DNA of 64,000 nucleotides from an uncultured bacterium (GTDB lineage: Bacteria > CG03 > SLGR01 > JAGXOG01): contig CAYZAK010000001.1 of the NCBI GenBank assembly GCA_964476445.1, positions 8,351 through 72,350 on the forward strand, in the 5' to 3' direction. This document shows, piece after piece, positions 19,848-48,540 of this stretch. Position numbers and translations under genes: made by a program. Numbering within the stretch: the stretch's first letter is position 1; each line of letters opens with the position of its first letter. The notes beneath the pieces were generated by a model that was not told the DNA's origin, made no database searches, and was given only the letters and a program-made list of their open reading frames with translations.

Positions 19848-19891
19848 AATATTAGCTTAAAAATATACTAATTAGTCAGTAAAAAATCAAT

Positions 19892-26236: not shown

Positions 26237-26282
26237 AAATTTTCAGATTATTTAAATCCGGTAAAAGTACGGTGTTCCGGCG

Positions 26283-32882: not shown

Positions 32883-33104
32883 TTATTCTTCTTCTTTTAA
32901 ATTGGAAAGTTCTTTCCAGGCTTCTGCGTTGATATTTTTACGGTACTCTTTAACTTTTTCTACAATTTCTTCAATTTTTTCTTTAACCATTAACCGGTTT
33001 CCGCTGGTAAGAGAGATATGAGTATCCGGATGGGCGGTAATTGTCTCTATTAATTCGGCATTTAAAACTATCCGGGTACCGTTCATTTTTGTCACAGTTA
33101 TCAT
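32883..33104 (-). CDS. flbD: FlbD-family flagellar protein
   Basis: MITVTKMNGTRIVLNAELIETI...TLTSGNRLMVKEKIEEIVEKV matches the short FlbD family encoded immediately upstream of motA in spirochaete and Firmicute flbD-motA-motB operons. Confidence 0.75.
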   Translation of the reverse strand: MITVTKMNGTRIVLNAELIETITAHPDTHISLTSGNRLMVKEKIEEIVEKVKEYRKNINAEAWKELSNLKEEE

Positions 33105-33106: not shown

Positions 33107-36100
33107 TTATAAAACTAAAATATCTTTAGATGAATTTTTCTTAAATTTATCAGTAATTTTTTTAAAGAAAGATTTCCGCTCTTCCTGAAGTTCACGTAAA
33201 AGACGGGCCTGGTTTTTCTCCAGTTCCTGTCTTTTCTTCTTCTCCTGTTCAGCTATTTGGGATAGCTGTTTCTGGTCTCTTAACATTATATCAAATTTTT
33301 TCTTTAAATTATCTCTTTCCTTAATAACTTTCTGAGTTTTATCTATGAAATTCTTGATTTTTTTCTCCCGATCATCCCATTTTTTCTGCCAATCCTGTTC
33401 CATTTTTTTCTTATCGGCTTTTGAAATCCGGTCGGAATTTTGTTTAGACATTTCCTCTAATCCTATTTCTAACTGAGCTTTAAGTTCCCGAATTCTGTCT
33501 TTTAAAGTGTTATTTTTCTGTTTAAGATTATTAACTGTAGTTTTATTCTGAGAATTCGAAACAGATTTTTCTTTTAGTTCCTTTAACTGTTTGTTTTTAA
33601 GCTCTATATCTTTTATAGCTTCTTCAAGTTCTCCTTTCAACTCGTTTATCATATTTACTTTTTGTTCCTGCTTTGCCAGAATTTTTTTGTTTTTTTCAAG
33701 TTTTTGGTTTAACTTTTTATTTTCCTGTTTTAAATTTTCCAGCTCCTGTTCATCCTCTTCAGAAGGTGTCCGGGAAAGATTTTCCTGTAAATTTTCTATC
33801 TTTAAAGTTTTCTCTTCCAACTCATTCTTTAAGTTTTCAATAACCTTACTTTTTTGGGTCAAATTTTCCTCAAGGTTTTCCTGCGCTTCAAGTTCTACGT
33901 TTAAATTTTCCACTCTGTTGGATAATTTTGCTATCCGTTCTTCTTTCTTTTTCAGTTCGTCATTATCAGGCCTGCTGGAAAGATTTTCCTGTAAATTTTC
34001 TATCTTTAAAGTTTTCTCTTCCAACTCATTCTTTAAGTTTTCAATAACCTTACTTTTTTGGGTCAAATTTCCCTCAAGGTTTTCCCGCTCTTCAAGTTCT
34101 ATGTTTAAATTTTCCACTCTGTTGGATAAGTTTGCTATCCGTTCTTCTTTCTTTTTCAGTTCGTCATTATCAGGCTGGGAGGCGATTTTTTCTTCCAAGT
34201 TTTTGATTTTTTGTTCTTTTTTTTCAAGTTCTTCTTTTTCAGGATTATGTATTAATTTCTTTTCTAAATTTTTAATACGGTCTTTCTGATTTCCTATAAT
34301 TTTTTCTTTATCAACTACATCGGTTTTTAAAGTTTCTATCTTTTCTGCTTTAGCCGTAATTTCATCTTTTAAATTATTGGCTTCACTCTGGTCTATTTTA
34401 TACCTCATTTCTGAGGTTAAATCCTTTATTTTAGAATCTTTTTTTTCAATCTCTTTTAAAATCTGGTTGATCTCTTCTTGATGAGAGGCCTCTTTTTGGG
34501 AAAGTCGCTGTTCTAATTTTTCTATACGCTCTTCTTTATCTTTTAAATCGTTTTTTACCCTTTTAAATTTTTCTGTTATATCTGACAGTTCTCTTTCCCG
34601 ATTTTCTGATATTTGGTTGTTTTTATGGAAATTCTCAACATATTCCTCGGTCTTTTGTTTGAACCGGTTAAAATTATATTTTAAATTATCCAGTTCCTTG
34701 TTTTTATATTCAAGCTCTCTGTTTAATTTATTATTTTCTTCCTCTAATTGTTCCAGCTCTAATCTAAAATCCTTTTTTCTTTCTTCGTATTTATCAGCTG
34801 AATCCCATTTTTCCTCCACCTTGTGCAACAGATCCTGATAATTATTTTTAAGCCGGTCTATTTCATTTCTAAGCTTATCTTCTCGCTTTTCAAGTTCAAA
34901 TTTAATAACCTTGTTTTCTTCTATCTTTTTATCATATTTATTTTTCCACATTTCTATTTCCTCCCTAGCGGTTTTAAGCTCTTCCCGAGCTGACGCAAAT
35001 TTAGCTCTGTGTTCTAAGAGCTTGCTTTCCTGAGTTTCTAATTTTTGATTAAGTTCAACAATCTTGTTTCTGGCATTATTTAAATTCTGTTTAAGTATAT
35101 TTTTTTGTTTATATATATGACTTTTGAGATCTTTTATTTCGGATTTATAATCTTCTATTTTTTGGGCGTGTCTTTTTTCCTGTTCATTTAATTTTAATTT
35201 TAATTCCTCTTTTTCAGAGGTTCTTTGTCTTTTAATATCTCTTACCCGGCTTTGAAGACTTGAAATTTCATCTTTTAACTCTTCTTCTTTTTCCTGATAA
35301 TTAAGACGGAGTTCCTCCTTCTGTTTATCCCATTCCTCTTTAAGCCACCGGGTATTTCTTTTATAATCTTCGAATTCTCTTTTTAAACTCCGTATTCTTT
35401 GATCCTTACGGTTTCTTAATTCTCTTACAGTATTCCGGGATTCTTCAAGCTGGTTATTAAGTAACTCTAATTGCCGGTTATAATCCTCTTCGTTTTTATT
35501 AAGTTTTTCCCGTTCTTCGCGTCTTATTTCTCTAATTTTACTCTCTATTTCAAAAGCTGCGTCTTCTTTTTCCTTAATTACACCGGACAATTTTTCCTTC
35601 ATCTCTTTATTTGTACGGTTTAGATTATGATTTTCATCGTCAAATTCCTGTAAATCTGTTTTTAACTGTTCATTTTTCTTTTTAAGATTACGGTTCTGCC
35701 TTATATTATTTTCCAGTTCTTCTTCTAAATTTTCAATCTTTTGGGCTGTTTTACGGTGTATTTTTTCTTTCTCTTCTTTTAGAGTTTCCACTTTATTTTT
35801 CTGAGTTTCATAACTTTGTCTTAAACTGTTCATTTTTTCTTCATATTCATCTTCTATTTTGGTTTTTATTTTTTCATAATTTACTTTTTTTGTTTTTATA
35901 TTTTCTAACGCTCGGCTGTGAAGTTCTTCTTTAGCGGAAATCTGCTGTTCATATTTTTGCTGAATATTCTTAAACTTTTCTGCCAAATTAGCCTTGCTGT
36001 TCTCTAAATCTTTAATTTGGGATTGGTAATCTTTAATTTTATTACTATATTCTCGTTCCAAAGTTCTAATTTTATCTTCATTCTGTTCATTAATATTTCT

Positions 36101-37426
36101 TATTTTTTCAGTCCAACGGCGGTGGTGAGTATTTAATTTAGATTCTAGATTATTAATTTTTTCATTATAAACGTCCCGCTGAGATTCATATTTACTCTGT
36201 TTGGACTTTATCTGATCAGTGAGTCTATTTATCTTGTTTTTATATCTTCTATCTAATAAATCCTTTTCTTTATTTAAACTGTTAATCTTATTTGTGTACT
36301 CTACCTTTTCCTGTTCGTACTTTTGTTTAATATTTTCATACTTATGTATAGCATCTTCTTTATTTTGAACTTCTCGGGTGAGTTTTTCCTTGTAATTATA
36401 TTTAAGTTTGCTTATCTTCTGCTGAAATTCAGAGACCGCTTTTTCCTTCTCGTTTATATTGTCCCTTAATCTTTCTTCCCACAGTTCGCTTTTATTATTA
36501 AATTTCTGCTGAATTTTCCACAGTTCTCTATTAGTTTCGTCGTTGTTTTTTTGAAGTTCATAAATCTTATTTTTTAAATTATGCCGAACTTCTTTAAGCC
36601 TGTTTTGATAGTCAAGTTTTAAATTATCTCTTAAATTTTCACTTCTTTGAAGTTTTTTACTCCATTCTGTTCTCTTCTCTATAAGTTTCTTTTCCATCTC
36701 CCGCAGTTGCTCCCGGAGTTGTTGTTTCTCTTCACGGGTCTGGTCAAATTTTTTATTTAACGCCGTACTCTGTAAAACTTCCTTTAATGACTGTTCAACT
36801 TTAACGGCATTTTTTTCTTCTTCTTTATATTTTATTCTTTCTTCGTAAGCTCTTTTTTTTGCTTTTTCAAGCTCCTCTTTTAATTCCTTAACTTGTTCCT
36901 GAACCTGGTTTTGAGCTTCCCTGTATGCCTCCTGACGGATCTGATTCTGGGTTTTTTCTTTAGCTATCTTAGCTTTATTTTCTTTACGTATCTTTTCTAA
37001 AGTTTCCTGCCATTTTTTTCTTTCTTCGGCAAGTTCCTGCTCTCTTTTTTTATATTCTTCCTCCAGACTCTTTTTAAGATTAGCCAATTCTCTCTGTCTA
37101 TGGCGAGTCTGTTCTTTTTCTTTCTTGAGAAATTTTTCCTGAAGTTCTAAATTTTCTTCCTCAGTTTCTTTAAGACGGTTCATTAATTCTTCTCTTTCTT
37201 TTACCATCCGACCTTCTATATCTTGAATTTTATTTTTGGCTTCTTCGGCTTTTTGAGACTTTTGTTTTTTCTGTTTATCTTTTTCAGACGGGGGTCCCGG
37301 CGGGAGGGTCGGACCCTGGCCGAAATTGCTGGAGCTGGAGCTGCTATTTTTACCGGGGCCGGGTACCGGAGGAGTTCCCGGCGTCGGATCAGGTAAATTA
37401 GGAAATTTTGAGTTTTTGTTTTTCAT
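33107..37426 (-). CDS. Giant (1439 aa) Lys/Glu-rich coiled-coil protein with Pro-rich N-terminus and internal 68-aa tandem repeat
   Basis: N-terminal PNLPDPTPGTPPVPGPG...SSSSSS low-complexity, then >1300 aa of continuous heptad K/E/L/N/Q sequence. Residues ~1085-1225 contain two near-identical 68-aa units (SQPDNDELKKKEERIANLSNRVENLN...KIENLQENLS). Confidence 0.7.
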   Translation of the reverse strand: MKNKNSKFPNLPDPTPGTPPVPGPGKNSSSSSSNFGQGPTLPPGPPSEKDKQKKQKSQKAEEAKNKIQDIEGRMVKEREELMNRLKETEEENLELQEKFLKKEKEQTRHRQRELANLKKSLEEEYKKREQELAEERKKWQETLEKIRKENKAKIAKEKTQNQIRQEAYREAQNQVQEQVKELKEELEKAKKRAYEERIKYKEEEKNAVKVEQSLKEVLQSTALNKKFDQTREEKQQLREQLREMEKKLIEKRTEWSKKLQRSENLRDNLKLDYQNRLKEVRHNLKNKIYELQKNNDETNRELWKIQQKFNNKSELWEERLRDNINEKEKAVSEFQQKISKLKYNYKEKLTREVQNKEDAIHKYENIKQKYEQEKVEYTNKINSLNKEKDLLDRRYKNKINRLTDQIKSKQSKYESQRDVYNEKINNLESKLNTHHRRWTEKIRNINEQNEDKIRTLEREYSNKIKDYQSQIKDLENSKANLAEKFKNIQQKYEQQISAKEELHSRALENIKTKKVNYEKIKTKIEDEYEEKMNSLRQSYETQKNKVETLKEEKEKIHRKTAQKIENLEEELENNIRQNRNLKKKNEQLKTDLQEFDDENHNLNRTNKEMKEKLSGVIKEKEDAAFEIESKIREIRREEREKLNKNEEDYNRQLELLNNQLEESRNTVRELRNRKDQRIRSLKREFEDYKRNTRWLKEEWDKQKEELRLNYQEKEEELKDEISSLQSRVRDIKRQRTSEKEELKLKLNEQEKRHAQKIEDYKSEIKDLKSHIYKQKNILKQNLNNARNKIVELNQKLETQESKLLEHRAKFASAREELKTAREEIEMWKNKYDKKIEENKVIKFELEKREDKLRNEIDRLKNNYQDLLHKVEEKWDSADKYEERKKDFRLELEQLEEENNKLNRELEYKNKELDNLKYNFNRFKQKTEEYVENFHKNNQISENRERELSDITEKFKRVKNDLKDKEERIEKLEQRLSQKEASHQEEINQILKEIEKKDSKIKDLTSEMRYKIDQSEANNLKDEITAKAEKIETLKTDVVDKEKIIGNQKDRIKNLEKKLIHNPEKEELEKKEQKIKNLEEKIASQPDNDELKKKEERIANLSNRVENLNIELEERENLEGNLTQKSKVIENLKNELEEKTLKIENLQENLSSRPDNDELKKKEERIAKLSNRVENLNVELEAQENLEENLTQKSKVIENLKNELEEKTLKIENLQENLSRTPSEEDEQELENLKQENKKLNQKLEKNKKILAKQEQKVNMINELKGELEEAIKDIELKNKQLKELKEKSVSNSQNKTTVNNLKQKNNTLKDRIRELKAQLEIGLEEMSKQNSDRISKADKKKMEQDWQKKWDDREKKIKNFIDKTQKVIKERDNLKKKFDIMLRDQKQLSQIAEQEKKKRQELEKNQARLLRELQEERKSFFKKITDKFKKNSSKDILVL
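33770..34177. repeat. Two tandem near-identical 204-bp direct repeats inside the coiled-coil gene
   Basis: Unit ggaaagattttcctgtaaattttctatctttaaagttttctcttccaactcattctttaagttttcaataacc... at 33773 recurs at 33977 (offset 204) with only a handful of substitutions, ending ...ttcagttcgtcattatcagg at 33970 and 34174. Confidence 0.9.
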
Positions 37427-37542: not shown

Positions 37543-39495
37543 TTAATGAACTTCTACCCATTCTTTTAATTCCTGATTATCCGGATTTAACTGCAGGGAT
37601 TTTTTATAAGAAGCTTTAGCTTTACTTTCCTCCCCCATAGCTAAATAACAGGAGCCCATATATTGATGGGTCTGCCATATATCAGGGTTGTACTGTAAAG
37701 ATTGCTGGAATTGCTGCACGGCCTGGCTGTAATTTTCGTTCTTATAGGCTTCCAGACCCTTTTCATAAAACTTAAAAGCTATTTCATCGTTATTGGTCTC
37801 TTCTTTTGGCGGACTTTCCATATTTTCTTTTTCTTCAATTGCTTCTTTGGCCGCATTTATTATGTTCTCAAGAACGGACTCTTTCTCTTCTTCTCCAAGT
37901 TCTTCTTCCCAAAGCTCCGCAGTTCCTTCCCCTGTTACACCCGTTATAGTACCGTCCGCTTCCAATTCTTTTATTTTGGCTACAATACCACGCTGACTGT
38001 TTTTTATCTGCTCTCCAGTCACATTACGACCGTATTCAATCTCTTCTTTTAATAAAGCTGCCGCTCCTTCACTCATGTTTTCCATAAACCTCTCCCTGAA
38101 CTCTTCAGAAGTATTTTTAAGGGCAACTCCCAGATCTTTGGTTTCTACTTCCTGGATAATCATCTGTATAGCCGCATCATCCAGATTCATTATATCTTCA
38201 AAACTAAAAATTTGACTTTCAACTTTCTGAGAAAATTCAGGATCTTCTCTGGAAATAGACTCAAGTATCTGATCTCTCTCAGTTTCGCCCATCACCTCCA
38301 GCATACCTACCAGCTTGTCCGCTCCACCGGACACATATTCTATCTTTTGGCTTAAAAATTCATCCACGTGCTCCATAATCTCTTTTGAAGTGCATTGCAT
38401 ACTCACTATCTTTTTAGCAATTTCCGCTTTATTCTCTTCCGGTAAAGCGGCTAACACTTTTGCCGCTTTCGGCGCATCTAAATAATCTATTAACAGTGCC
38501 GCCACAGACGGCTTTTCAAAATTCAAAAGATAGGCCAGTTTTTTTAAATCTTTATTCTCCAAAAACTTTAAAGGTTTATAGGTCATTTTTTCAAACTCCT
38601 CCTCTTCGGTCTCTTCTTGTGTTTCCCCTTCTATATATTCTCCGTCTTCAATTTCTTCTTCCGGTTTTTCTTCATCAAATTCTTCCTCCAGTTCTTCTTC
38701 CATTTCCATTTCAGTTTCCCCGGCCCCCATACCGGCACCTATGCCGCCACCGCCGGCCGTGGCACCGGTAAATTCTGTTTCGGATTTCATCTTTTTTAAA
38801 TCTTTTAAAGTCTGAAGAGTAGCAAAAAGAAATTTACGGAGAGGACCGAACAGAAAAAGGCCAATTATACCCAAGGTAATTAAGCCCAGGACGATTACAT
38901 AAAAATAAGGATTAAATAAAAACCCTACAAAATCAATAGTTCTCCCGGCAAAATCCACCCGCTGAATAGTAAGCCTGTCTCCCCGGGCCGGATTTATATC
39001 AAGAACATCGGTTAGTACATTTTCAATAGTTAGTACGGTTTCATCAGGTATTCCCCGGTCCAGTATTAAACTGACCTGAATACTAGCCAGAAATTCAGAA
39101 GGCAGAGTAATTACATCTTCTATTCTTTTTGCCCCGCCGGTACCTCTTTCGGCATCCTGATCTTCGGGCTGTTCCTCTAACTGTTGTCTTCTTAACGGAA
39201 CTCCGGGAAGGTACTCTTCTACTTCAGGGGAGTACGGCTGATCTTCTTCTCTTTCTTCGGACCACTGCTCGGTCTGAGTTCTGGATTTTTCCAGATCGGC
39301 CAGCTCAACGCTGACAATGACCGATGATTTTCCCTCCCCTACAATTCTTTCCACTATACCGCTTAAATGGGTTTCCAGGCGCTGTTCAGTTTCCATCTTC
39401 TGATTTATCAGGGTAGTATAATCAGAGAATTCAGCTTGGCCCATAAAAAGGGGTACTGCCAACAGTACTGCCAGTTTTTTTAGTATATTTTTCAT
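37543..39495 (-). CDS. Membrane-anchored FliF-like ring-building-motif / FliG (middle + C-terminal domains) / TPR fusion protein
   Basis: Residues ~35-185 contain two FliF/YscJ-like RBM blocks: RLETHLSGIVERIVGEGKSSVIVSVELAD and SIQVSLILDRGIPDETVLTIENVLTDVLDINPARGDRLTIQRVD (cf. FliF ASVTVTLEPGRALDEGQISAVVHLVSSAVAGLPPGNVTLVDQSG). TM at ~187-218; acidic/Gly-rich linker. Residues ~305-525 align with the FliG M and C domains: ILESISREDPEFSQKVESQIFSFEDIMNLDDAAIQMIIQEVETKDLGVALKNTSEEFRERFMENMSEGAAALLKEEIEY versus T. maritima ILESLEEEDPELAEEIRKKMFVFEDILKLDDRSIQLVLREVDTRDLALALKGASDELKEKIFKNMSKRAAALLKDELEY. The C-terminal ~85 aa form TPR repeats. Stop overlaps the upstream FadL-like gene start (ATGA). 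Confidence 0.7.
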   Translation of the reverse strand: MKNILKKLAVLLAVPLFMGQAEFSDYTTLINQKMETEQRLETHLSGIVERIVGEGKSSVIVSVELADLEKSRTQTEQWSEEREEDQPYSPEVEEYLPGVPLRRQQLEEQPEDQDAERGTGGAKRIEDVITLPSEFLASIQVSLILDRGIPDETVLTIENVLTDVLDINPARGDRLTIQRVDFAGRTIDFVGFLFNPYFYVIVLGLITLGIIGLFLFGPLRKFLFATLQTLKDLKKMKSETEFTGATAGGGGIGAGMGAGETEMEMEEELEEEFDEEKPEEEIEDGEYIEGETQEETEEEEFEKMTYKPLKFLENKDLKKLAYLLNFEKPSVAALLIDYLDAPKAAKVLAALPEENKAEIAKKIVSMQCTSKEIMEHVDEFLSQKIEYVSGGADKLVGMLEVMGETERDQILESISREDPEFSQKVESQIFSFEDIMNLDDAAIQMIIQEVETKDLGVALKNTSEEFRERFMENMSEGAAALLKEEIEYGRNVTGEQIKNSQRGIVAKIKELEADGTITGVTGEGTAELWEEELGEEEKESVLENIINAAKEAIEEKENMESPPKEETNNDEIAFKFYEKGLEAYKNENYSQAVQQFQQSLQYNPDIWQTHQYMGSCYLAMGEESKAKASYKKSLQLNPDNQELKEWVEVH

Positions 39496-41090
39496 TCCAT
39501 TAAATCCTCTATTTCAAATTCTTCACTGTCTCTATCCACCGGCCGGCGAACCTGATTAATAAAATTCCTCAGATCATCATCGGCCGGATTAAGCTGCAGA
39601 GATCTTTCCCAGGCCTCCACAGCTCTCTCTTCGTTGCCTATAGAGTAAAAAGACGAGCCAATTCTTTTGTACGCCTGGGCGTTTTCGGGCTCAATAACCA
39701 GCACTTCCTGGTATTCTTCAATGGCCTGGGCATAATCCTCGTTGTAAAAATGCTGAAGTCCCTTATGTAATTTGTACTCGGCCAGGGACATTCCCGAAAC
39801 AACTCTTATCCGGGGATCTGCTAAATTTTCCTTTTCCCCTATCCATCTTAAAAGCTCTTTAGCCTGTTCATCAGTGGGATCTTCAGTAATTATGTGATTT
39901 AAAGCCAGTACTATGATATCAACATTATCATTTTCTATGTACTCCCTTATACCTCTTCTTAAAAGAGAACCCGATCGGGTATCCTCCACTTTACGGGGAA
40001 TCCATTCTGCTATATCGGATAAAATATCCCTTTTTCTGGATACTTCACGGTCAAAAGGATTTAAACTGTAAGCTTTTTCAAAACTTTTCAAGGCATCGTC
40101 ATAAAGACCTTCCCGGTAAGCCACATCACCTTCCGTTTTATATTCCCGGGCGGACCTTTCCTTTATTTCCTTAACAGAACGTCCGAAACTTATAGTGGCC
40201 GATAGCCTGTGCGAGCCACCTAAATCATGGGCCGCATAGGCATAATCCACTCCGTAATCATCATATTCAATTCCAAAACCCAGGTTTAATTCCTGGGGAT
40301 CTATACCCATCCTGAGAGCCAGATAATCCAGAGCCCAGAACTCCATCCCTATATTGTAAGGAAGTCCGCTATCCCAGCCTATGGCAGTACTTATATCCGC
40401 ACCCAGGGACAACCGGTCCCTTAATAACTTGTAATTCACTCCCAAACGGGCCATTATGGGTAATTCATCGGAAGTATTGTAGGATTCGGAAAGTAAATTC
40501 TGCATATTCAATCCCACTCTTAAATCCTCTATGGGGGTATATATTCCCCCAATATCTAAAATATAACTGCCGCTTTTATGATTATCAAGGGTATGGCTCA
40601 TTTTTTTAAAGGTTCCTCCAACTGCCAGCTCTTCTAAAATTCTCTGGCCGTAAGATAAACCGTAAGCACTCTGAATATCCTCAAATGTATGGGTAACTCT
40701 ATTTTTGGCATCTCTTCCTTCAAATCCTCCCATAAAAAGCCGAGTTCCCGAAAACCCGAAAGTTCCCCCGAACTCGGTGGGCTGAACATAACTTACAAAA
40801 TCATATACCGACCCTCCCCATAAAACTGAATGAAGAGCAGTTAATTCACTCCGGTGAAGGTCAGCCAGTCCGGCTGGATTCCAGTAAGTAGCCGAAGCAT
40901 CGTCGGCCAGGGCAACAAAAGCTTTTCCCATGCCCAGAGACCGGGCTCCCGCTCCCCAGGACATAAAAGCACCGGGCATACCCCCACGACCGCTCTTACG
41001 AGCCCAGTTTAAAGTAAACTGGCCCAGCGAAATTATATAAGCCAGAACAATTAATACCAAGACTGATTTTTTTATCAATTTATATATCAT
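39492..41090 (-). CDS. FadL/PorV-like outer-membrane beta-barrel protein with ~230 aa C-terminal TPR extension
   Basis: Signal peptide MIYKLIKKSVLVLIVLAYIISLG (start set at ATG 41090); hatch-domain motif ARSLGMGKAFVALADDASATYWNPAGLADL matching FadL [27 protein letters not shown]; alternating amphipathic strands; C-terminal TPR repeats (YKLHKGLQHFYNEDYAQAIEEYQEVLVIEPENAQAYKRIGSSFYSIGNEERAVEAWERSLQLNP). Confidence 0.6.
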   Translation of the reverse strand: MIYKLIKKSVLVLIVLAYIISLGQFTLNWARKSGRGGMPGAFMSWGAGARSLGMGKAFVALADDASATYWNPAGLADLHRSELTALHSVLWGGSVYDFVSYVQPTEFGGTFGFSGTRLFMGGFEGRDAKNRVTHTFEDIQSAYGLSYGQRILEELAVGGTFKKMSHTLDNHKSGSYILDIGGIYTPIEDLRVGLNMQNLLSESYNTSDELPIMARLGVNYKLLRDRLSLGADISTAIGWDSGLPYNIGMEFWALDYLALRMGIDPQELNLGFGIEYDDYGVDYAYAAHDLGGSHRLSATISFGRSVKEIKERSAREYKTEGDVAYREGLYDDALKSFEKAYSLNPFDREVSRKRDILSDIAEWIPRKVEDTRSGSLLRRGIREYIENDNVDIIVLALNHIITEDPTDEQAKELLRWIGEKENLADPRIRVVSGMSLAEYKLHKGLQHFYNEDYAQAIEEYQEVLVIEPENAQAYKRIGSSFYSIGNEERAVEAWERSLQLNPADDDLRNFINQVRRPVDRDSEEFEIEDLME

Positions 41091-41112
41091 ATCATTTGTA
41101 CAAAAAAAATAC

Positions 41113-41149
41113 CGATTTACCTTTATAAACATGATAAAGGCAAATCGGC
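41113..41149 (-). terminator. Intrinsic terminator-like hairpin between the two FadL-like genes
   Basis: Minus-strand RNA gccgatttgcctttat-catgttt-ataaaggtaaatcggt (15-bp stem, 1 G-U) followed by AUUUUUUUUG. Lies 22 nt upstream of the ATG at 41090 and ~220 nt downstream of the stop of the 41371-42444 gene. Confidence 0.55.
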
Positions 41150-41370
41150 AATTCCAATACATCAACCTGTATTGACTTCCAATTCAACCTACTGGCAATT
41201 CAGCCTTCCTTAACTTTACCAGGAACTGTAATTTTGCGTTACGACGGTTACCCACCGGTTGCCTTTATCAGTAGTTTTTCAATATTCTATTTTCTTTTCC
41301 TATTAAATTAATAACACGAAATCCGGTTTTTTTCAAGGAATTCATTAATGTACCGGTAACTTTCCGTTAT

Positions 41371-42444
41371 TTAATTATCAAATTCAGTTCTTTTATTTTT
41401 AGTTCTTTCCATCCAGTTTCTAATTCTCTTATAATTACTATCTAAAGAATATACCTTATTGAACTCCAGCCAGGCCTTACGGTACTGTTCATCCTTAAAA
41501 AATTTTTTGCCTTTTCTGTACATCTGTTCTATTAATACCGGTTCACCGAATTTAAAATTTAAATCCACCCGATGAGAAATTCCCAGTTCCCCAAAAGGTG
41601 CCAGAGCGTAATCTAGTTCTAAATCCCCCCATCTAACACCTCCCCCAAAACGAAAAGTTTCATCTATATCCGACCGGCTATTCCAGCCGCCCCTAAAATA
41701 AAGAGATTGCCACAAGTCAAACTCCACCCCCCCACCGTATCTTAACTGGTCATTTATATAAATAACGTCGGCGGCTATAAGGGTAAATTTATTCAGTCTT
41801 AATCCCAGACCCGTAAAAAATGAAACAGGCATAGAAGGAACTTCTTCAACCAGCCTCCCGCTCACCCCGGCGTTTTTAACCCCCCCCGAAAGCCACAATC
41901 CTTCAACAGGTTCTACTATAACTCCCCCGTCAAGTCCCACGGCAAAAACACTGTCTTCATGGAGTTGTTCAAATATTCCCTTTAAAGTTAATCCACCGGA
42001 CAGGTACCGGGTAATCCTCTGGGCCTGGGTGTAAGATATATAGTAGTCCCTGGCCGACAATGTCCCGGAAGGTTCCCCATACCAGTCATACCCTTCTATC
42101 TGCTCCACTGAAAGAATGGATATATTAATCCCCCCGGCGGCCATATTCTCCATAGGAAAAGCGAACCCTATTCTCTGCTGGTTTACATCTTGAAAATACT
42201 GATTGTGCATAGCCGAAACAGAGTATCTTTCCACATATCCCAGCCCGGCAGGGTTCCACCAGTAGGCATTGGGGCCATGAGAAACCGCCGTGCCCACCCC
42301 CATTCCTATTTCCCTGGCCCCCACGGGCAAATTAAGAAAATCAAAGGCCGTACTCCCCGGGCCGCTTCCCCAAAGAGAGGGAATTGCTATAACAGATATA
42401 TAAAGAAAAATTATGTATGATTTTTTTAGTATTTTAATCGTCAT
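41371..42444 (-). CDS. FadL/PorV-like outer-membrane beta-barrel protein (paralogue of 39492-41090) with short C-terminal TPR
   Basis: Signal peptide; same hatch motif VGAREIGMGVGTAVSHGPNAYWWNPAGLGYV; C-terminal QMYRKGKKFFKDEQYRKAWLEFNKVYSLDSNY TPR-like repeat; its start overlaps the stop of the 1915-aa CTD protein by 4 nt. Confidence 0.6.
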   Translation of the reverse strand: MTIKILKKSYIIFLYISVIAIPSLWGSGPGSTAFDFLNLPVGAREIGMGVGTAVSHGPNAYWWNPAGLGYVERYSVSAMHNQYFQDVNQQRIGFAFPMENMAAGGINISILSVEQIEGYDWYGEPSGTLSARDYYISYTQAQRITRYLSGGLTLKGIFEQLHEDSVFAVGLDGGVIVEPVEGLWLSGGVKNAGVSGRLVEEVPSMPVSFFTGLGLRLNKFTLIAADVIYINDQLRYGGGVEFDLWQSLYFRGGWNSRSDIDETFRFGGGVRWGDLELDYALAPFGELGISHRVDLNFKFGEPVLIEQMYRKGKKFFKDEQYRKAWLEFNKVYSLDSNYKRIRNWMERTKNKRTEFDN

Positions 42445-42700
42445 CTTATTATCATCAGTTTACCGGTTTTCCGGTTCCCGCCGCTTTTTATATGATAGAT
42501 ATAAGTCCCGCTGGCCACAGTCGCTCCCCGGGTATTTTCCACCGGATACCAGTTGTAAATTCCCGGCTGGGGCGCCTGGGCGTCAGAATGTTTCAGCGTT
42601 TTAACCACCCGCCCGGAAAGAGTGTATATTTCAATTTCGCATTCTGCAGGCAGATATCTGAAAGTAATACCGTCCCGGGGGGCGCCAGTTGGCCTCTCGG
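42441..42700 (-). other. T9SS-type C-terminal sorting domain (CTD) of the 1915-aa protein
   Basis: Terminal ~80 aa with the IY.LSGR.V...G.Y.W...G..VASG.Y.Y.I..G...GKL pattern ending in basic residues. Confidence 0.55.
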
Positions 42701-45700
42701 ACGGTTTATAGGGAACCGGATAGGGATGAGAGTCCTCCATATCGTAATTTCTTCCCCCCATTACCGTGTATACACTAAAATTTTTAAGAGGTGCGCTTAC
42801 CCTGTTTTCTTTGATATTTACCTTCGATGAGATCGGAACCCATTTTTTAGAATTTTCGTCAAGGTAGTAAACTTTAAGAGTACTTTCCTTTACCGGGGGA
42901 TTTAAACCGCTCCTTAAATATTTATCCTCGTAAAGTAAATCAGTATAGTCAAAAGTTATGGTTCCCAGATCTTCAAAAATTTGGTTTTGAGCTATCCCTT
43001 CAGTGGATCTGAAAATTACTTCAGTTGTAAATTCCTCAAACGGATAGTGAAACTTATCCCCCCAGGTCGCCTCAGCGTTATTTGCCGATATTACTTCCGA
43101 AACAGAGGCCAGCTGAGGTTCATTCTGGGGAATTTCTTCGGTGAACTCTATACGGCCGGAAGAGGGAAACTGGCCCGGTTCAACGGTTACTCTTATTCTT
43201 CCCGATGGACTGACAAGGTGATTTCTGTCTTCGTTTTCCACGATAGTCCGGAAACTCCATTTAAAATCTTCATGCATGTTTATCCTGAAAAGGGAAATAA
43301 TATTTTCAGAAGATACCTTTACCCTTATTTTAGAGTTGCCCGGCAGTGACCGGGCGGGAGTAAAAGTTATTGAAGACATGACCACACCCTGCTCGGTTTC
43401 CCGGGGCTGGGCGTAATTTCCGGCCTGAACCGAACTGAAGTGAATTTCCCGGTTAACTTCATTTCCTTCGGAATCGTTAACCTGAATAACCCTTAGGGCG
43501 TCCGAAATTCCTTCGGGAAGTATAAACTGGTCAATATAAATTTCTATCCGGGCGGTGGTATTGTCCTTATTTTTATCCAGTATATGTTCAAGATCCTCAG
43601 GAAACACGGATACAATTCCGGGTCCTTCCTCTTCCTCGTCAATATCTATAAAAATATCAAAATTTTCTTCCGGATCCACCTTATTCCCCGACAGATCTCT
43701 TATTGTCCGGCTGCTGACATCAAGATAGAGCTTGTCATCATCCGCTTCCTCCCGCAAACTCCATATTATATTATGTTCTTCTTCGGGTATCCCTATATAA
43801 ACACCCTTAGAATTCATCTCGCCGGTCTCTATAGTATAAATCTCGCCGGTAAACTCCCGTTTATTTTCGGTGGACGCATATATCGAAAGACCGTCCAGTT
43901 CTATGGTGGTGGAGGAAAGTTCCGGGGAAGTCCATACATCCATGTACTGGTTAAATTCAAGGAAAAGACGAATATCTCCCCCTATAATTTTATAGGTCGC
44001 CTCTTCCAACTGCGGTGAGGTCTCATCCCGGTGCCAGTTAATATCCTGTCTGAATAAAGCGGTGGCCCTTTTTATTGAGTAATTGCCGTGGGTATCTGCG
44101 GTGGCCGAAGATAAGATCCGAAGAAACGGTTCGCCTCCGGGGGGTTCCCCGGCGGCCCGGAAAGCGGCGTCCCACCGGGAAATTTTTTGGCGAAGATGTT
44201 TAGGTATAATAATTTCAACAGCCGAACCGGGGGGACCCACAGTACTGTAATCGAATCCTACAAGAGAAACAGGATTCTCTAATGAGGTCGAACTTTTATA
44301 TAATTCAATCTTTGTAATATCAGTTTTTTCTTTATCTAATTCAGGATGAGGCTCGTTCTCAAAACTTTCTCTTTTGAACTTTAAGTTCAATATAGATTCA
44401 TCGTGTTCATAATAAGTACCGGTTATATCTAAAATTGGTCGGGAATTATTTATTAAAAATTCTTTGCTGGTTAATTTATAATCTATTCCGGGTATCCCGG
44501 ACGAACCGTCATTTACGATTACCCTTAATTTTGTCTGTTCATTATAGGCCCCTTCTTCATCCTGTTGAGAAAGCCAGTTAAAAGTTACCGTGTTAGTACC
44601 GTATTCGGTAACGATATTTTTTATTTGATACTCTTCTTCCGGAGTAAATTCCACGTTCTCTTTCCCTTCAGTTACCGCCCCGGTAGAAGGTAAAGTTGCT
44701 TTTTGCCAGGGAGCATCCGGAGCAGTAGAATACTCCACTTTAAACCTTACTTCGTAGTTAGATTCAGCCCCTACATCCACCTTTACTATTACTTCACCGG
44801 AACCGTCTCTTTTCTTATTCGGGGTTTTTGAAAAAACAGCAGACGGAGGGTCCCGGGTCAAAGCTGTAGTGGTGGCTGTTCGGCTTTCATACCCAAACTC
44901 ATCATAAGCCCACAGACAACCCCAGTACCTGGTATCTCTTTGATGTTTCAGAGTTGTCGTTGATTGAGTATCTATATTTTTAAATTCTATAACCTCCGCT
45001 GTAGAAGTATCTCTGTATATTACATACTCATAACCTGAACTGGAATACCATAATTCATACCGGTCAAAATTCGCTTCTACTGCCTTATCCCACGACCAGT
45101 CCATACTTGTTTCAATGGGATTTTCTATTTGTACATTACCTAAAACCGGGGAACTAATATCTACCGTAAAATCTGTATTATAACTAGCAGAAGTTTCATC
45201 TTTATGATCAGTAAACTTAAGCTGAACAGCGGTAATACTATAATCCTCACCGGCGGCCGGTTCTAAATCTTCTTTTGCATTCCAGACAAAAGTATAGGTG
45301 GAAAACTCATTGTTAAAATTTAATTCCGGGCTGAACTTTTTATCTTTATAGGATGGAGCCATAATATAATTTTCTCCGGCGCCCAGCCAGAACTGGTTTC
45401 CATCCGGAACATAGGTGGAAATTTCCACGTCGTGATCTTTTCCTTCAAACTCAATATCTACCAGTCCGGAACCATCCCTTCTCTGAGCCGCCGAAAGAAT
45501 ATTTACTTTGGGCGGATGATTGGTCTTTTTTACAGCTTTATATGAATAACTATAATTTCCAAAATTATCGTACCCGAAAATAGAAAAATGGTAGGTGGTA
45601 TCCGGGGTAAGACCCGAAACGGTCACCGAAGACCTGCCCCCGTAATAAACAAAATCCAGAAATCCATACCCGGGATTATCTTTTGTAATACAGCCGTCGT

Positions 45701-48224: not shown

Positions 48225-48540
48225 TTACCTTATTATGGCTATCCGCCGGGTCTTTTCCACCGTTCCTTCGTCGGATTTTACCACTATTCGGGCCAGGTAC
48301 CCACCTTTAGCCACGTCCTGACCCCGCTCGTTTACGGCGTACCAGGGGAAACTGTTGTGTCCCTGCCGACCGCCGTTCTCCCCGGCGTCAAATTCCCAGT
48401 ATTTAACCAGATACCCCATCATATCGTACAGATATACTTCAACATTGGCGTCCTGATTAAGAATGTAGGTTATCTTAGTCTTCTCGGCGCCCAAATCAAA
48501 CCGGGCGGGATTGGGATAGTTGGATACCTCGCTTACAACC
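48225..48540 (-). other. T9SS-type C-terminal sorting domain of the giant adhesin
   Basis: Last ~100 aa SNYPNPARFDLGAEKTKITYILNQDANVEVYLYDMMGYLVKYW...GGYLARIVVKSDEGTVEKTRRIAIIR: NP.NP start, Y.Y.D..G..V, G.Y..R pattern of Por_Secre_tail-like CTDs. Confidence 0.6.

What the first reader, a model, noticed from the sequence alone, without database searches (positions are those of the whole stretch)
39492..42444. Two paralogous FadL/PorV-like outer-membrane barrels carrying C-terminal TPR extensions, flanking an intrinsic terminator and coupled to CTD cargo genes
Both proteins carry the FadL-family hatch motif (G.G.A..A..DDAS....NPAGL) and beta-strand periodicity. FadL/PorV/PorQ-type barrels normally end with the last beta-strand, yet these continue with TPR repeats, ~230 aa in one and ~35 aa in the other. 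In T9SS organisms, PorV-family proteins shuttle CTD cargo, and PorP/SprF-like barrels are encoded next to their cognate giant adhesin. Here barrel 2 overlaps the stop of a 1915-aa CTD protein, and barrel 1 overlaps the start of the FliG-like fusion. A C-terminal TPR tail located in the periplasm could bridge cargo or shuttle to the inner-membrane motor module.
Basis: partly seen in the sequence, partly recalled or inferred. Interest (0 to 1): 0.6.

Follow-up and report, generated by a model that had tools for sequence, protein, structure and literature searches.

The report
TPR-tailed PorV-like barrels beside rotary motor
Two outer-membrane barrel proteins of the PorV/PorQ family, one with a long periplasmic TPR arm, sit in a gene cluster conserved across Elusimicrobiota that joins giant surface proteins to a flagellum-type rotor and stator under a c-di-GMP riboswitch, and I found no description of this combination.

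Summary
Both ORFs pass NCBI's PorV/PorQ-family model (120.7 and 99.8 bits; cut-off 90). Barrel 1 models confidently (pLDDT 90.8) as hatch, 14 strands and 11 TPR-type helices, and solved PorV is its nearest fold. Barrel 2 is a paralogue (E 1.8e-41) that stops after the first TPR. The fusion is not a frameshift: it is intact in 56 species-level loci.

The "intrinsic terminator" is the expression platform of a c-di-GMP-I-type riboswitch (41185-41276, minus strand). Such a riboswitch lies upstream of 46 of 52 orthologues, and 11 of 17 pairs show compensatory changes.

Barrel 1 opens an operon: barrel, FliF(S-ring)-FliG(M,C)-TPR fusion, cytoplasmic coiled-coil protein, FlbD, MotA, MotB. The fusion is adjacent in 45 of 51 loci. 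The upstream giant proteins end in a T9SS type-A-like C-terminal domain.

No T9SS core gene or other flagellar gene was seen among the window ORFs scanned; the rest of the genome was not checked.

Best reading (inferred, 0.4): the barrels are the cargo-binding outer-membrane end of a PMF-driven machine, and the TPR arm is the periplasmic link. The machine combines T9SS-like and flagellar parts. I found no description of it.

The parts
48225..63992 (-). C-terminal 5255 aa of a giant surface protein. The gene runs off the window and is called as 8258 aa on the ENA contig. It ends in a T9SS type-A-like / FlgD_ig-like C-terminal domain.
   Evidence: The last 130 aa score 21.0 bits on TIGR04183 (cut-off 23). 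They score 30-32 bits on the C-terminal domains of the PorU and M6i models, and 17.9 on Pfam FlgD_ig. The same C-terminal domain (SNYPNP...GGYI...RKIGVIH) ends the upstream giants of most orthologous loci. No other Pfam domain was found.
42441..48188 (-). FG-GAP repeat protein of about 1891-1915 aa with a signal peptide and a T9SS type A C-terminal domain. It is the cargo partner of barrel 2.
   Evidence: Pfam FG-GAP_3 (1.5e-35) and Ig_Rha78A_N. TIGR04183 scores 23.4 bits on the whole protein and 28.5 on the tail, against a cut-off of 23. The same pair, FG-GAP protein plus barrel 2, occurs in L010 and L012.
41371..42444 (-). Barrel 2: a PorV/PorQ-family outer-membrane barrel of 357 aa, ending in a single conserved TPR-like hairpin.
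   Evidence: NF033709 scores 99.8 bits against 90. hhalign against the barrel 1 family gives E 1.8e-41, aligned through the first TPR. The tail is conserved in 14 homologues.
41185..41276 (-). c-di-GMP-I (GEMM-I clan) riboswitch aptamer in the leader of the barrel 1 operon.
   Evidence: Rfam RF03167 scores 39 bits, E 1.2e-6, below its gathering score of 59. Orthologous elements pass Rfam gathering scores at 41-73 bits. In the alignment, 11 of 17 pairs show compensatory changes. The family model R1 scores 72.8 bits here and gives 59 hits in the loci.
41102..41150 (-). Intrinsic terminator (17-pair hairpin plus U8), the expression platform of the riboswitch. Its 5' arm (UUGCCUUUAU) is complementary to the 5' core of the aptamer (AUAAAGGCAA).
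   Evidence: A hairpin plus U-run follows the aptamer in nearly all orthologous leaders. The UUGCCUUUAU arm is kept, with small variations, in L005, L008, L010 and L012, and more loosely in L006, L007 and L009.
39492..41090 (-). Barrel 1 (532 aa): signal peptide, hatch (~36-77), 14 beta-strands (81-302) and a periplasmic TPR domain (306-531).
   Evidence: NF033709 scores 120.7 bits. The AlphaFold2 model has pLDDT 90.8. The Foldseek top hits are PorV chains 8gl6_F and 6h3i_F, E 7e-13 and 1e-11. There are more than 1000 homologues, 370 representatives at E<=1e-30.
37543..39495 (-). FliF(S-ring, RBM3)-TM-FliG(middle and C-terminal domains)-TPR fusion of 650 aa: the putative rotor.
33107..37426 (-). 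1439-aa cytoplasmic coiled-coil protein with a proline-rich N-terminus. It carries a 204-nt tandem duplication at 33773-34175.
   Evidence: Only SMC/Rad50-type coiled-coil matches were found. In orthologous loci the downstream long ORF has no TM segment, 43-60% charged residues and, in many, a poly-Pro N-terminus. Tandem duplication.
32883..33104 (-). FlbD (SwrD-type) small protein of 73 aa.
   Evidence: PF06289 in the precomputed annotation. ORF. Present before motA in 12 of the 35 loci with at least 9 kb of downstream sequence.
31991..32878 (-). MotA/PomA-type stator A subunit of 295 aa with a lysine-rich C-terminal tail.
   Evidence: Pfam MotA_ExbB (8.8e-31). NCBIfam MotP scores 246.5 and PomA 234 bits, both below equivalog cut-offs. 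PDB MotA/PomA matches reach E 1e-49.
31155..31991 (-). MotB-type stator B subunit of 278 aa, with plug, conserved channel Asp and OmpA-like peptidoglycan-binding domain.
   Evidence: Pfam MotB_plug and OmpA. The Asp in 'YSDLVTQ' is conserved in all aligned MotB orthologues.

Best explanation
Barrel 1 and barrel 2 are paralogous 14-stranded PorV/PorQ-family outer-membrane barrels of an Elusimicrobiota bacterium. Each is encoded just after a large secreted protein that ends in a T9SS-type-A-like C-terminal domain (CTD).

Barrel 1 is the first gene of an operon controlled by a c-di-GMP-I-type riboswitch with an intrinsic terminator. The operon then encodes:
- a FliF(S-ring)-FliG(M,C)-TPR fusion, a minimal MS-ring/C-ring-like rotor;
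- a very long cytoplasmic coiled-coil protein;
- FlbD, MotA and MotB, a flagellar-type stator.

Proposed mechanism (inferred):
1. The barrel holds the CTD of the neighbouring giant protein at the cell surface, as PorV holds CTDs.
2. Its periplasmic TPR arm connects the barrel to the periplasmic ring of the FliF/FliG fusion, or to MotB.
3. Proton flow through MotAB turns the FliG ring.
4. That work is passed to the barrel-adhesin complex, moving or tensioning the giant adhesin on the surface. This would be a gliding-like device analogous in logic to SprB/T9SS and to Agl-Glt.
5. Barrel 2 is a cut-down anchor for the second cargo, the 1915-aa FG-GAP protein.
6. The leader is built as an OFF switch. 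Bound c-di-GMP frees the terminator, so the motor module is made at low c-di-GMP.

Shown: family, fold, domain fusion, paralogy, riboswitch, gene order and its conservation. Inferred: every physical contact, rotation, the output of the machine and the sign of the switch.
For: Family and fold: NF033709 scores 120.7 and 99.8 bits. AlphaFold2 gives pLDDT 90.8, 14 strands and 11 helices. PorV is the nearest solved fold.

Paralogy runs through the first TPR.

The fusion is conserved. 56 species-level loci carry an intact 488-654-aa barrel-TPR ORF. About 58 of the best 150 representatives at 50% identity align from hatch to last TPR (my count from the table).

Synteny:
- FliF/FliG fusion adjacent in 45 of 51 loci;
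- long ORF downstream in 31 of 35;
- MotA and MotB within 10 kb in 16 of 35;
- a long ORF (>=800 aa) ending within 1.5 kb upstream in 28 of 42.

The upstream giants share a CTD-like end.

Stator: flagellar-type MotA/PomA, and the MotB channel Asp is conserved in all aligned orthologues.

Riboswitch. 46 of 52 loci have at least one, and 8 have tandem copies. A terminator follows almost everywhere, and in the window's clade its 5' arm complements the aptamer core.

An independent parallel exists in L066: CTD protein, PorV-like barrel, separate 1028-aa TPR protein, then ExbB-ExbD-ExbD-TonB.

A preprint notes that free-living Elusimicrobiota without flagellar structural genes carry motAB, flbD and fliG of 'unclear' role (10.1101/2022.07.08.499144).
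Against: - No contact between the TPR arm and any motor part was tested.
- A TPR domain of about 225 aa plus an S-ring is probably too short to span the periplasm alone. This estimate rests on my own knowledge.
- No translocon for the giant protein is encoded nearby.
- The classic rotor-stator charge pairs are altered. The FliG R281 equivalent is an invariant Gly in this family. In the window's clade, MotA has Ser at the R90 position; at the E98 position the window, L005 and L008 have Gln while L011 and L012 keep Glu. Other clades keep R/K and mostly E.
- MotAB lies within the 10-kb flank in only 16 of 35 loci. In many of the rest, long ORFs fill the flank.
- In a Firestonebacteria locus the barrel-TPR gene is not followed by a FliG gene.
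- The OFF-switch call rests on sequence complementarity and a fold of the truncated leader. The MFE fold of the full leader forms the terminator either way.
- The giant-protein genes lie upstream of the riboswitch and are not under it.
Confidence: 0.4

Rival explanations
1. The machine is the same, but its output is export and surface attachment of the giant CTD proteins rather than movement. The MotAB/FliF-FliG motor would supply the energy that the GldLM/PorLM motor supplies in the T9SS. The barrel-TPR protein would be the CTD receptor or shuttle.
For: PorV is the nearest solved fold, and the cargo carries T9SS-like CTDs. Every cargo gene is paired with its own barrel. In the T9SS a PMF motor is needed for substrate transport and PorV carries the CTD (abstract of PMC10994853, seen). 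Giant proteins of 8,000-18,000 aa need some dedicated route.
Against: No SprA/Sov-like translocon, PorK/N, PorU or PorZ was seen among the genes with family annotation in the window and the inspected flanks. A 14-strand plugged barrel is too narrow to pass a folded protein (own knowledge). A predicted c-di-GMP OFF switch fits motility better than adhesin display.
Confidence: 0.25
2. The barrels are passive, cargo-specific outer-membrane anchors or assembly factors for CTD proteins, like PorQ for PorZ, PorV for PorU or SprF for SprB. The TPR tail would act as a chaperone or envelope tether. The co-transcribed motor would do something else, with no mechanical link to the barrel.
For: Barrel 2 has only one TPR and lies outside the riboswitch-controlled operon, yet still pairs with a CTD protein. 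Related barrels carry other periplasmic tails: LysM in L029 and FlgD_ig in L066. The barrel-TPR gene occurs without a FliG gene in a Firestonebacteria locus.
Against: Barrel-TPR and the FliF/FliG fusion are adjacent in 45 of 51 loci and overlap by 4 nt in the window, which suggests translational coupling. One riboswitch leader precedes both genes. The parallel cluster uses an ExbBD-TonB motor.
Confidence: 0.2
3. The cluster is part of, or a decaying remnant of, an ordinary flagellum. The barrel-TPR protein would be a flagellar outer-membrane or collar accessory.
For: FliG, FlbD, MotA and MotB are of flagellar type. TPR collar proteins exist in spirochaete motors, and there is a weak FlcA hit. 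A few Elusimicrobiota do have full flagellar gene sets.
Against: No FliM/N, export apparatus, rod, hook or filament gene was found among the window ORFs scanned or the annotated flanks. The fusion lacks FliG_N and FliF RBM1-2, which the flagellar export gate and FliF-FliG joint need. The genes are intact and conserved in 45 or more species, so they are not decaying. Most free-living Elusimicrobiota with these genes lack flagellar structural genes.
Confidence: 0.05
4. The barrels are FadL-type channels for hydrophobic small molecules, and the neighbouring genes are incidental.
For: They have a FadL-like hatch motif and fold. FadL and TodX are the second tier of structural hits, at E about 1e-8.
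Against: Pfam Toluene_X scores 14.9 bits against 29.7. PorV is the better match in both sequence and structure. The conserved synteny with CTD cargo and the motor is hard to explain this way.
Confidence: 0.03

Closest known systems
PorV (LptO) of the Bacteroidota type IX secretion system, e.g. F. johnsoniae PorV in the SprA-PorV complexes 6H3I and 8GL6
   Same: It is a 14-strand FadL-like barrel with an N-terminal hatch and the best structural match (E 7e-13, TM 0.63 on the target). Both belong to NCBIfam family NF033709. Both are encoded with, or act on, proteins carrying a type-A CTD.
   Different: Barrel 1 and barrel 2 are not orthologues of PorV (30.6 and 29.2 bits against 250). Barrel 1 carries a 227-aa periplasmic TPR domain that PorV lacks. 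No SprA, PorK/L/M/N or PorU is visible nearby. The host phylum has no described T9SS in the papers searched. The partner motor is MotAB/FliG, not GldLM/PorLM.
Cargo-barrel pairs of the T9SS: PorQ-PorZ, PorV-PorU and SprF/PorP-SprB
   Same: A PorV/PorQ/PorP-type barrel is encoded next to, and presumably anchors, one particular large CTD-bearing surface protein. SprB is a giant mobile adhesin.
   Different: PorQ equivalog scores are 54.1 and 86.2 bits against 220. Pfam PorP_SprF scores 12 bits against 22.3. The TPR extension and the adjacent rotor gene have no counterpart in these pairs.
Flagellar MS-ring / C-ring / stator (FliF, FliG, MotAB, FlbD/SwrD), including engineered FliF-FliG fusions (8Z4D)
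   Different: There is no FliF RBM1-2 and no FliG_N. No FliM/N, export apparatus, rod, hook or filament gene is present. There is an extra cytoplasmic TPR and a coiled-coil partner of 800-2100 aa. The R281-equivalent torque-helix Arg is replaced by Gly throughout the family. The outer-membrane partner is a PorV-like barrel.
Myxococcus xanthus Agl-Glt gliding machinery (own knowledge)
   Same: The overall logic matches: an inner-membrane MotAB/TolQR-family PMF motor, periplasmic TPR and TonB-like connectors, outer-membrane barrels and a surface adhesin. The L066-type cluster with ExbBD-TonB and a separate TPR protein is closest to it.
   Different: No homology beyond the motor family and generic TPRs was seen. 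The only GltE hit was weak, 12.7 bits. Agl-Glt has no FliG or FliF ring and no CTD cargo.
c-di-GMP-I (GEMM-I) riboswitches, e.g. Cd1 upstream of the Clostridioides difficile flagellar operon (own knowledge)
   Same: The aptamer belongs to the same clan and has a terminator-type expression platform. It sits upstream of an operon containing MotAB/FliG-type genes, and the predicted OFF logic matches.
   Different: The window copy scores below Rfam gathering scores (39 bits). Here the first regulated gene is an outer-membrane barrel. Ligand binding is untested.

Membership tests
PorV/PorQ family (NCBIfam NF033709) | Profile score above the curated cut-off (90 bits) | tested here: met
   Barrel 1 scores 120.7 bits and barrel 2 scores 99.8 bits.
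PorV/PorQ family (NCBIfam NF033709) | 14-stranded FadL-like beta-barrel with an N-terminal hatch | tested here: met
   The barrel 1 AlphaFold2 model (pLDDT 90.8) has 14 strands at residues 81-302, with hatch helices at 41-77. The top Foldseek hits are PorV chains. Barrel 2 aligns over the whole barrel at E 1.8e-41 but was not modelled.
PorV proper (NF033710) and PorQ proper (NF033711) | Equivalog-level score (250 and 220 bits) | tested here: not met
   PorV scores 30.6 and 29.2 bits. PorQ scores 54.1 and 86.2 bits. PorV2 scores 62.1 and 53.4 bits against 325.
Type IX secretion system (as a system) | Core genes in the genome: SprA/Sov, PorK, PorL, PorM, PorN, PorU | not testable with these tools
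   None was seen among the window ORFs scanned or in the 10-kb flanks with precomputed annotation. The rest of the genome could not be read.
T9SS type A C-terminal sorting domain (TIGR04183 / PF18962) | Profile score above the cut-off at the extreme C-terminus of the neighbouring cargo | tested here: inconclusive
   The 1915-aa protein scores 28.5 bits on the tail alone and 23.4 on the whole protein, against 23, so it passes. The giant protein scores 21.0, just below. Orthologous giants score 17.7-32.2. All are below the Pfam PF18962 cut-off of 27. FlgD_ig hits reach 33.7 bits.
FadL / Toluene_X (PF03349) | Pfam gathering score (29.7 bits) | tested here: not met
   Barrel 1 scores 14.9 bits over 35 residues of the hatch only, and barrel 2 has no hit. 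The fold is related at Foldseek E about 1e-8.
PorP/SprF (PF11751) | Pfam gathering score (22.3 bits) | tested here: not met
   Barrel 1 scores 12.0 bits and barrel 2 has no hit.
TPR repeat | TPR profile matches and a helical-hairpin fold, contiguous with the barrel in one ORF | tested here: met
   Barrel 1 scores 57.8 bits on TPR_2 and 55.1 on TPR_1, above their cut-offs. The model has 11 helices. The single ORF is intact in 56 loci. The barrel 2 tail gets no Pfam TPR hit and is homologous to the first TPR of barrel 1 only by profile alignment.
c-di-GMP-I riboswitch (Rfam clan CL00126: RF01051, RF03167) | Covariance-model score above the gathering score | tested here: inconclusive
   The window copy scores 39 bits on RF03167 against 59, so it fails, at E 1.2e-6. 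Elements at the same position in 8 relatives pass, at 41-73.3 bits. The model built from the family scores 72.8 bits in the window, but the window sequence was in its seed.
c-di-GMP-I riboswitch (Rfam clan CL00126: RF01051, RF03167) | Conserved two-hairpin structure supported by covariation | tested here: met
   11 of 17 predicted pairs show changes on both sides that keep the pair, across 20 sequences.
c-di-GMP-I riboswitch (Rfam clan CL00126: RF01051, RF03167) | Binds c-di-GMP | not testable with these tools
   The nucleotides that I take, from memory of Vc2 numbering, to be G20, A47 and C92 are present. Three relatives have A at position 20.
Flagellar rotor FliG (TIGR00207; PF14841, PF01706, PF14842) | All three FliG domains at an equivalog score | tested here: not met
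   FliG_M (61.9 bits) and FliG_C (106 bits) pass their cut-offs. The only FliG_N hit lies over the M/C region (residues 329-417), not on a separate N domain. TIGR00207 scores 154.4 bits against 226.7.
Flagellar M-ring FliF | RBM3 / S-ring fold followed by TM2 | tested here: met
Flagellar stator MotAB | MotA_ExbB and MotB_plug/OmpA domains, the channel Asp, and an equivalog score | tested here: inconclusive
   The domains are present and the Asp is conserved. The nearest models are MotP/PomA at 246.5 and 234 bits, below their cut-offs of 394 and 341. The rotor-facing R90 and E98 equivalents are Ser and Gln in the window.
Zorya anti-phage system | ZorA with long tail, ZorB, and ZorC/D or ZorE | tested here: not met
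   PADLOC gives only generic ZorB (MotB) matches up to 57 bits. ZorA scores 16 bits and there are no other Zor proteins.

The most novel reading that the evidence does not exclude
The cluster encodes a previously undescribed envelope-spanning rotary machine of Elusimicrobiota. Its parts would be a minimal FliF/FliG ring turned by MotAB, with no flagellar export apparatus or filament, coupled through the periplasmic TPR arm of a PorV-like barrel to a giant CTD-bearing adhesin. It would be switched by c-di-GMP through a riboswitch. This would be a third type of adhesin-based gliding or secretion motor, built by joining flagellar and T9SS-like modules. It would also explain the orphan motAB, flbD and fliG genes of non-flagellated Elusimicrobiota.
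Probability: 0.45. Interest if true: 0.9.

Novelty: new variant of a known kind. Interest (0 to 1): 0.77.

Why it matters
- **A different context for PorV-like barrels.** They are known as shuttles and anchors of the Bacteroidota T9SS. Here the same fold carries a built-in periplasmic arm in another phylum and is hard-wired genetically to a flagellar-type rotor and stator.
- **An answer to a published puzzle.** If the coupling is real, it explains why free-living Elusimicrobiota without flagella keep motAB, flbD and fliG.
- **A minimal rotor to study.** It would be a natural FliF-FliG rotor with no export apparatus.
- **A possible handling route for giant proteins.** It may show how surface proteins of 8,000-18,000 aa are handled.
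- **Evolution of envelope machines.** It suggests PMF motors were joined to outer-membrane barrel-adhesin modules more than once: MotAB/FliG here, ExbBD-TonB in the L066-type cluster, GldLM in the T9SS and AglRQS in Myxococcus.
- **A directly testable regulator.** The riboswitch gives a regulatory input that can be assayed.

Tried and rejected
- **Exact look-up of the 532-aa barrel 1 found nothing.** Public gene calls use the upstream TTG (557 aa). The 557-aa form was found.
- **One Rfam scan of 20 loci was refused for size.** I replaced it with a scan of 8 loci and my own covariance model.
- **The word-indexed homologue search returned few hits.** It gave 23 hits for the FliG fusion, probably because acidic low-complexity words filled the candidate list, and 17 for barrel 2. 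Family sizes for these two are therefore unknown.
- **FadL/Toluene_X and PorP_SprF membership was rejected on score.**
- **Zorya or another defence system was rejected.**
- **The frameshift or split-ORF explanation for the TPR part was rejected.** The ORF is intact in 56 species, and the junction is modelled with high confidence.
- **Pfam on the 5255 aa of the giant protein gave nothing usable.**
- **The cluster-member look-up gave no organism name.** The phylum is inferred from the names of homologues.
- **MFE folding of the full leader cannot distinguish ON from OFF.** The terminator forms either way.
- **Seven literature searches found no description of this gene combination.** Subscription journals are not covered.

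Full report
**1. What is at the coordinates**

All genes in this part of the window are on the minus strand. The longest ORF for barrel 1 is 39492-41165. Its first 25 codons run through a terminator hairpin, and homologues start at the Met encoded at 41090. The protein is therefore 532 aa. Barrel 2 is 41371-42444, 357 aa.

- Both proteins pass NCBI's PorV/PorQ-family model NF033709 (120.7 and 99.8 bits; cut-off 90).
- Both fall far below the equivalog models for PorV (30.6 and 29.2 bits against 250), PorQ (54.1 and 86.2 against 220) and PorV2.
- In Pfam they touch only UPF0164, the Treponema FadL-like family. They fail Toluene_X (14.9 against 29.7) and PorP_SprF (12 against 22.3).
- Barrel 1 has clear TPR_1/TPR_2 matches at 314-345 and 444-505.

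**2. Fold**

I modelled barrel 1 with AlphaFold2 using an alignment of 52 homologues. The model has mean pLDDT 90.8 and contains:

- a signal peptide;
- short hatch helices at residues 41-77;
- exactly 14 strands between 81 and 302;
- 11 helices from 306 to 531.

The best matches among solved structures are the PorV chains of the F. johnsoniae SprA-PorV complexes: 8gl6_F (E 6.8e-13) and 6h3i_F (E 1.2e-11), each with TM 0.63 on the target. FadL and TodX follow at about 1e-8. With an even number of strands and the known FadL/PorV topology (own knowledge), the C-terminal TPR domain must be periplasmic.

**3. The two barrels are paralogues, and the short tail is a truncated TPR domain**

Profile-profile comparison of the two families gives probability 100%, E 1.8e-41. 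It aligns barrel 1 residues 27-363 with barrel 2 residues 21-354. The match therefore runs through the last strand and the first TPR hairpin.

The barrel 2 tail (PxLIExIYRxAxKLY...AWVEFNKVxSL..YKK) is among the best conserved parts of its family, seen in 14 homologues at 46-54% identity.

**4. The fusion is real and common**

- The barrel 1 search returned more than 1000 hits. The best 120 are nearly all 515-610 aa and carry both barrel and TPR Pfam domains. Those with names are called 'PorV/PorQ family protein [Elusimicrobiota bacterium]'.
- An exhaustive HMMER search of 1.84 billion representatives gave 370 at E<=1e-30. By my count from the table, about 58 of the best 150 align in one stretch from the hatch to the last TPRs.
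- A scan of one genome per species returned 79 loci. 56 of them have an intact barrel-TPR ORF of 488-654 aa.

A frameshift artefact is excluded.

**5. The 'intrinsic terminator' belongs to a riboswitch**

The 280-nt gap between the barrels holds a 17-pair hairpin followed by U8 (41150-41102). Just upstream, Rfam finds a c-di-GMP-I-clan aptamer at 41190-41272. It scores 39 bits on RF03167, E 1.2e-6, which is below that family's gathering score of 59. On its own that would be weak, so I checked relatives.

- The same position upstream of barrel 1 orthologues gives matches above gathering scores in all eight loci tested. RF03167 scores 73.3, 71.6, 63.1 and 60.1 bits. RF01051 scores 71.7, 50.2, 49.4 and 41 bits.
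- In an alignment of 20 such leaders, 11 of 17 predicted pairs have compensatory double changes. The first hairpin keeps a GNRA loop.
- A covariance model built from them finds 59 matches in 1.33 Mb of loci. All are on the strand of the barrel gene, and almost all lie within about 1 kb upstream of it. The window element scores 72.8 bits at 41185-41276, although it was part of the seed.
- 46 of 52 loci with enough upstream sequence have at least one aptamer, and 8 have two in tandem.
- All 20 leaders have 'ACGCAAA', where the RF03167 consensus has 'ACGCGAA'. By my recollection of Vc2 numbering they therefore carry the canonical G20/A47/C92 set. Binding was not tested.

A hairpin plus U-run follows the aptamer in nearly every leader. 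In the window's clade the 5' arm of that hairpin contains UUGCCUUUAU or a close variant. This is complementary to the aptamer's conserved 5' core AUAAAGGCAA. When the leader is folded without the 3' arm, those two segments pair. That is the layout of an OFF switch: ligand-bound aptamer, free terminator, termination. I hold this at moderate confidence, because the MFE of the full leader forms the terminator in any case.

**6. What the riboswitch controls**

Barrel 1 overlaps by 4 nt a 650-aa protein (37543-39495).

- Its residues 307-523 are FliG middle and C-terminal domains (Pfam 6.7e-17 and 1.6e-30; PDB FliG E 1.5e-40).
- Its N-terminal third has a signal/TM segment, a periplasmic domain and a second TM helix at about 189-220.
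- Pfam hints at YscJ_FliF_C (E 0.002).
- A profile of this region from 29 family members hits Salmonella FliF residues 240-284 (E 1.8e-5), Vibrio FliF 419-490 (E 0.0066) and the ring-former SpoIIIAG (E 1.4e-5).
- The AlphaFold2 model (pLDDT 69 overall, 80-87 in this domain) shows an alpha-beta-beta-alpha-beta ring-building motif. A disordered insertion sits where FliF has its beta-collar.
- The C-terminus (575-645) is a cytoplasmic TPR.

The protein is thus a natural FliF(S-ring)-TM-FliG(M,C)-TPR fusion. It lacks FliF RBM1-2 and FliG_N.

The next genes are:

- a 1439-aa protein with no hydrophobic segment, a proline-rich N-terminus and only coiled-coil-type similarities;
- a 73-aa FlbD;
- a MotA closest to MotP/PomA (246.5 and 234 bits; PDB E 1e-49);
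- a MotB with plug, OmpA-like domain and the channel Asp.

PADLOC gives only generic ZorB similarity, so this is not Zorya.

**7. Conservation of the gene order**

Among the 56 barrel-TPR loci:

- The FliF/FliG fusion is the next gene in 45 of 51 with enough downstream sequence.
- A long ORF (>=800 aa) lies downstream in 31 of 35. Those just after the fusion have no TM segment and 43-60% charged residues, and many have a poly-Pro N-terminus.
- MotA and MotB are within the 10-kb flank in 16 of 35, and FlbD in 12.
- A long ORF (>=800 aa) ends within 1.5 kb upstream in 28 of 42. Gene calls put some of these giants at 8,258, 16,931 and 17,969 aa.

The MotB Asp is conserved in all aligned orthologues. 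At the rotor-facing MotA positions (R90 and E98 equivalents):

- The window's clade has Ser at R90.
- At E98, the window, L005 and L008 have Gln, while L011 and L012 keep Glu.
- Other clades keep R/K and mostly E.

In FliG the acidic pair of the torque helix is kept (EE), but the R281 equivalent is an invariant Gly. The interface is thus modified, not lost.

**8. The cargo**

The C-termini of the upstream giants are strikingly alike (SNYPNP..., LYDL.G..V, GGYI, RKIGVIH).

- They match the T9SS type A sorting domain near its threshold: 17.7-32.2 bits against 23. The window's giant scores 21.0, and the 1915-aa FG-GAP protein scores 28.5.
- They also match the CTDs of the PorU and PorZ models and FlgD_ig.
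- In the window, and in L010 and L012, an extra pair (FG-GAP protein plus barrel 2) sits between the giant and the riboswitch. In L005, L006 and L009 the giant is followed directly by the riboswitch and barrel 1. Each CTD protein therefore has its own barrel.
- Related barrels carry other periplasmic tails. L029 has a LysM domain after a CTD protein that hits both type A and type B models. L066 has a FlgD_ig domain.

**9. An independent parallel**

In L066 (a MAG labelled Methylomirabilis) the order is: 1800-aa CTD protein, PorV/PorQ-family barrel (109.9 bits), a separate 1028-aa all-TPR protein, then ExbB, ExbD, ExbD and TonB. Five more loci (Goldbacteria, Firestonebacteria and Spirochaetia MAGs) show the same sizes and order by my ORF scan, but I did not annotate them. 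So the theme of CTD cargo, PorV-like barrel, periplasmic TPR and inner-membrane PMF motor recurs, with the TPR as a separate protein and a different motor.

**10. What is not there**

The window ORFs scanned by Pfam are a Bat/MoxR aerotolerance-type operon, GAPDH, PGK, a PilT-like ATPase, riboflavin genes, LigA and similar. About eight ORFs at the low-coordinate end were not scanned.

No T9SS core gene and no further flagellar gene is among the ORFs scanned, or in the precomputed annotation of four other loci. I could not read the rest of the genome. A preprint on magnetotactic Elusimicrobiota states that most free-living members lack flagellar structural genes yet carry 'numerous' motAB, flbD and fliG homologues whose role is 'unclear' (10.1101/2022.07.08.499144). 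Seven full-text searches found no paper linking these genes to PorV-like barrels, giant proteins or a riboswitch.

**11. Interpretation**

Shown: family, fold, fusion, paralogy, riboswitch, operon structure and its conservation.

Inferred:

- The barrel binds its neighbour's CTD.
- The TPR arm reaches a periplasmic partner of the motor.
- MotAB turns the FliF/FliG ring.
- This work moves (my preference, about 0.4) or exports (about 0.25) the giant protein.

I prefer movement for two reasons. The predicted c-di-GMP OFF logic matches motility regulation. The architecture also matches the two known adhesin-based gliding machines. A passive-anchor reading (0.2) remains open, because barrel 2 works with one TPR outside the operon, and because a Firestonebacteria barrel-TPR gene has no FliG neighbour.

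**12. Novelty and score**

The barrels themselves are a new domain variant of a known family, already auto-annotated as 'PorV/PorQ family'. The cluster as a whole combines T9SS-like outer-membrane and cargo parts with a stripped-down flagellar rotor and stator under a c-di-GMP riboswitch. I found no description of it, and it could be a new kind of envelope machine. I rate the finding as a new variant of a known kind, with interest 0.77. I give 0.45 to the reading that it is a categorically new rotary machine.

Noticed in passing
L029:9559-9692, L034:9732-9820, L047:9814-9904: Three orthologous aptamers read AAUAGCAAAC instead of AAAGGCAAAC. They have A where I take position G20 to be, the change that marks cGAMP-sensing GEMM-Ib RNAs (own knowledge). 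Some lineages may have switched ligand.
   Followed up: no
L025, L027, L031, L032, L035, L037, L039, L064 (about 200-1000 nt upstream of the barrel gene): Two c-di-GMP-I-type aptamers lie in tandem upstream of the barrel-TPR gene in 8 loci. In L084 (the same contig as L025) a 131-aa FlgD_ig-only ORF lies between the aptamers and the barrel.
   Followed up: partly
L066:4543-16836, with the same layout by ORF size in L057, L061, L062, L069 and L078: A parallel cluster outside Elusimicrobiota: ~1800-aa CTD protein, 412-aa PorV-like barrel with a C-terminal FlgD_ig domain, 1028-aa TPR protein, then ExbB, ExbD, ExbD and TonB. Only L066 was annotated.
   Followed up: partly
L029:17348-21093: An 807-aa protein has a C-terminus that hits both type B (29.1 bits) and type A (24.4 bits) T9SS sorting-domain models. 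It is followed by a 422-aa PorV/PorP-like barrel with a C-terminal LysM-like domain.
   Followed up: partly
window 33773-34175: A near-perfect tandem duplication (period 204 nt, 2.0 copies, 97% match) lies inside the coiled-coil gene. The gene also has very low G+C (0.30-0.35) and a strong AT skew compared with its neighbours.
   Followed up: partly
window 31991-32130 (C-terminus of MotA): MotA ends in a tail of about 45 residues made almost entirely of lysine (KKDKKKNKKGKKTKQKKSKRTNKRTKKKKFKYKSKKKK). It extends beyond the aligned end of the solved MotA/PomA chains.
   Followed up: no
window 37250-37426, and the long ORFs after the FliG fusion in L005-L021, L029, L034, L043-L056 and L080: The long cytoplasmic coiled-coil proteins start with a proline-rich stretch, such as PPPPPPPPFSG. 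This could be the ligand of the cytoplasmic TPR at the end of the FliF/FliG fusion. That link is untested.
   Followed up: no
window 18486-27266: A Bat/MoxR-type operon: MoxR AAA ATPase, DUF58, an unannotated 272-aa ORF, BatA-like and BatB-like VWA proteins, a TPR protein, BatD-TPR, a PHP-domain protein and another TPR protein.
   Followed up: no
window 13592-15534: A PilT/T2SSE-type ATPase (356 aa) overlaps by 4 nt a 291-aa protein with a cyclic-nucleotide-binding domain.
   Followed up: no
L004:20349-21146 (also L003): A 265-aa PilZ-domain protein, a c-di-GMP receptor, lies a few kb downstream of the barrel/FliG/MotAB cluster in a closed Elusimicrobiota-like genome. No riboswitch was detected upstream of the barrel in L003 or in L023, the same chromosome.
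   Followed up: no
L032 and L051 (both from MAG MGVE01): One genome carries at least two barrel-TPR loci, each behind a different giant gene. This fits the 'numerous' motAB/fliG copies reported for the phylum.
   Followed up: no
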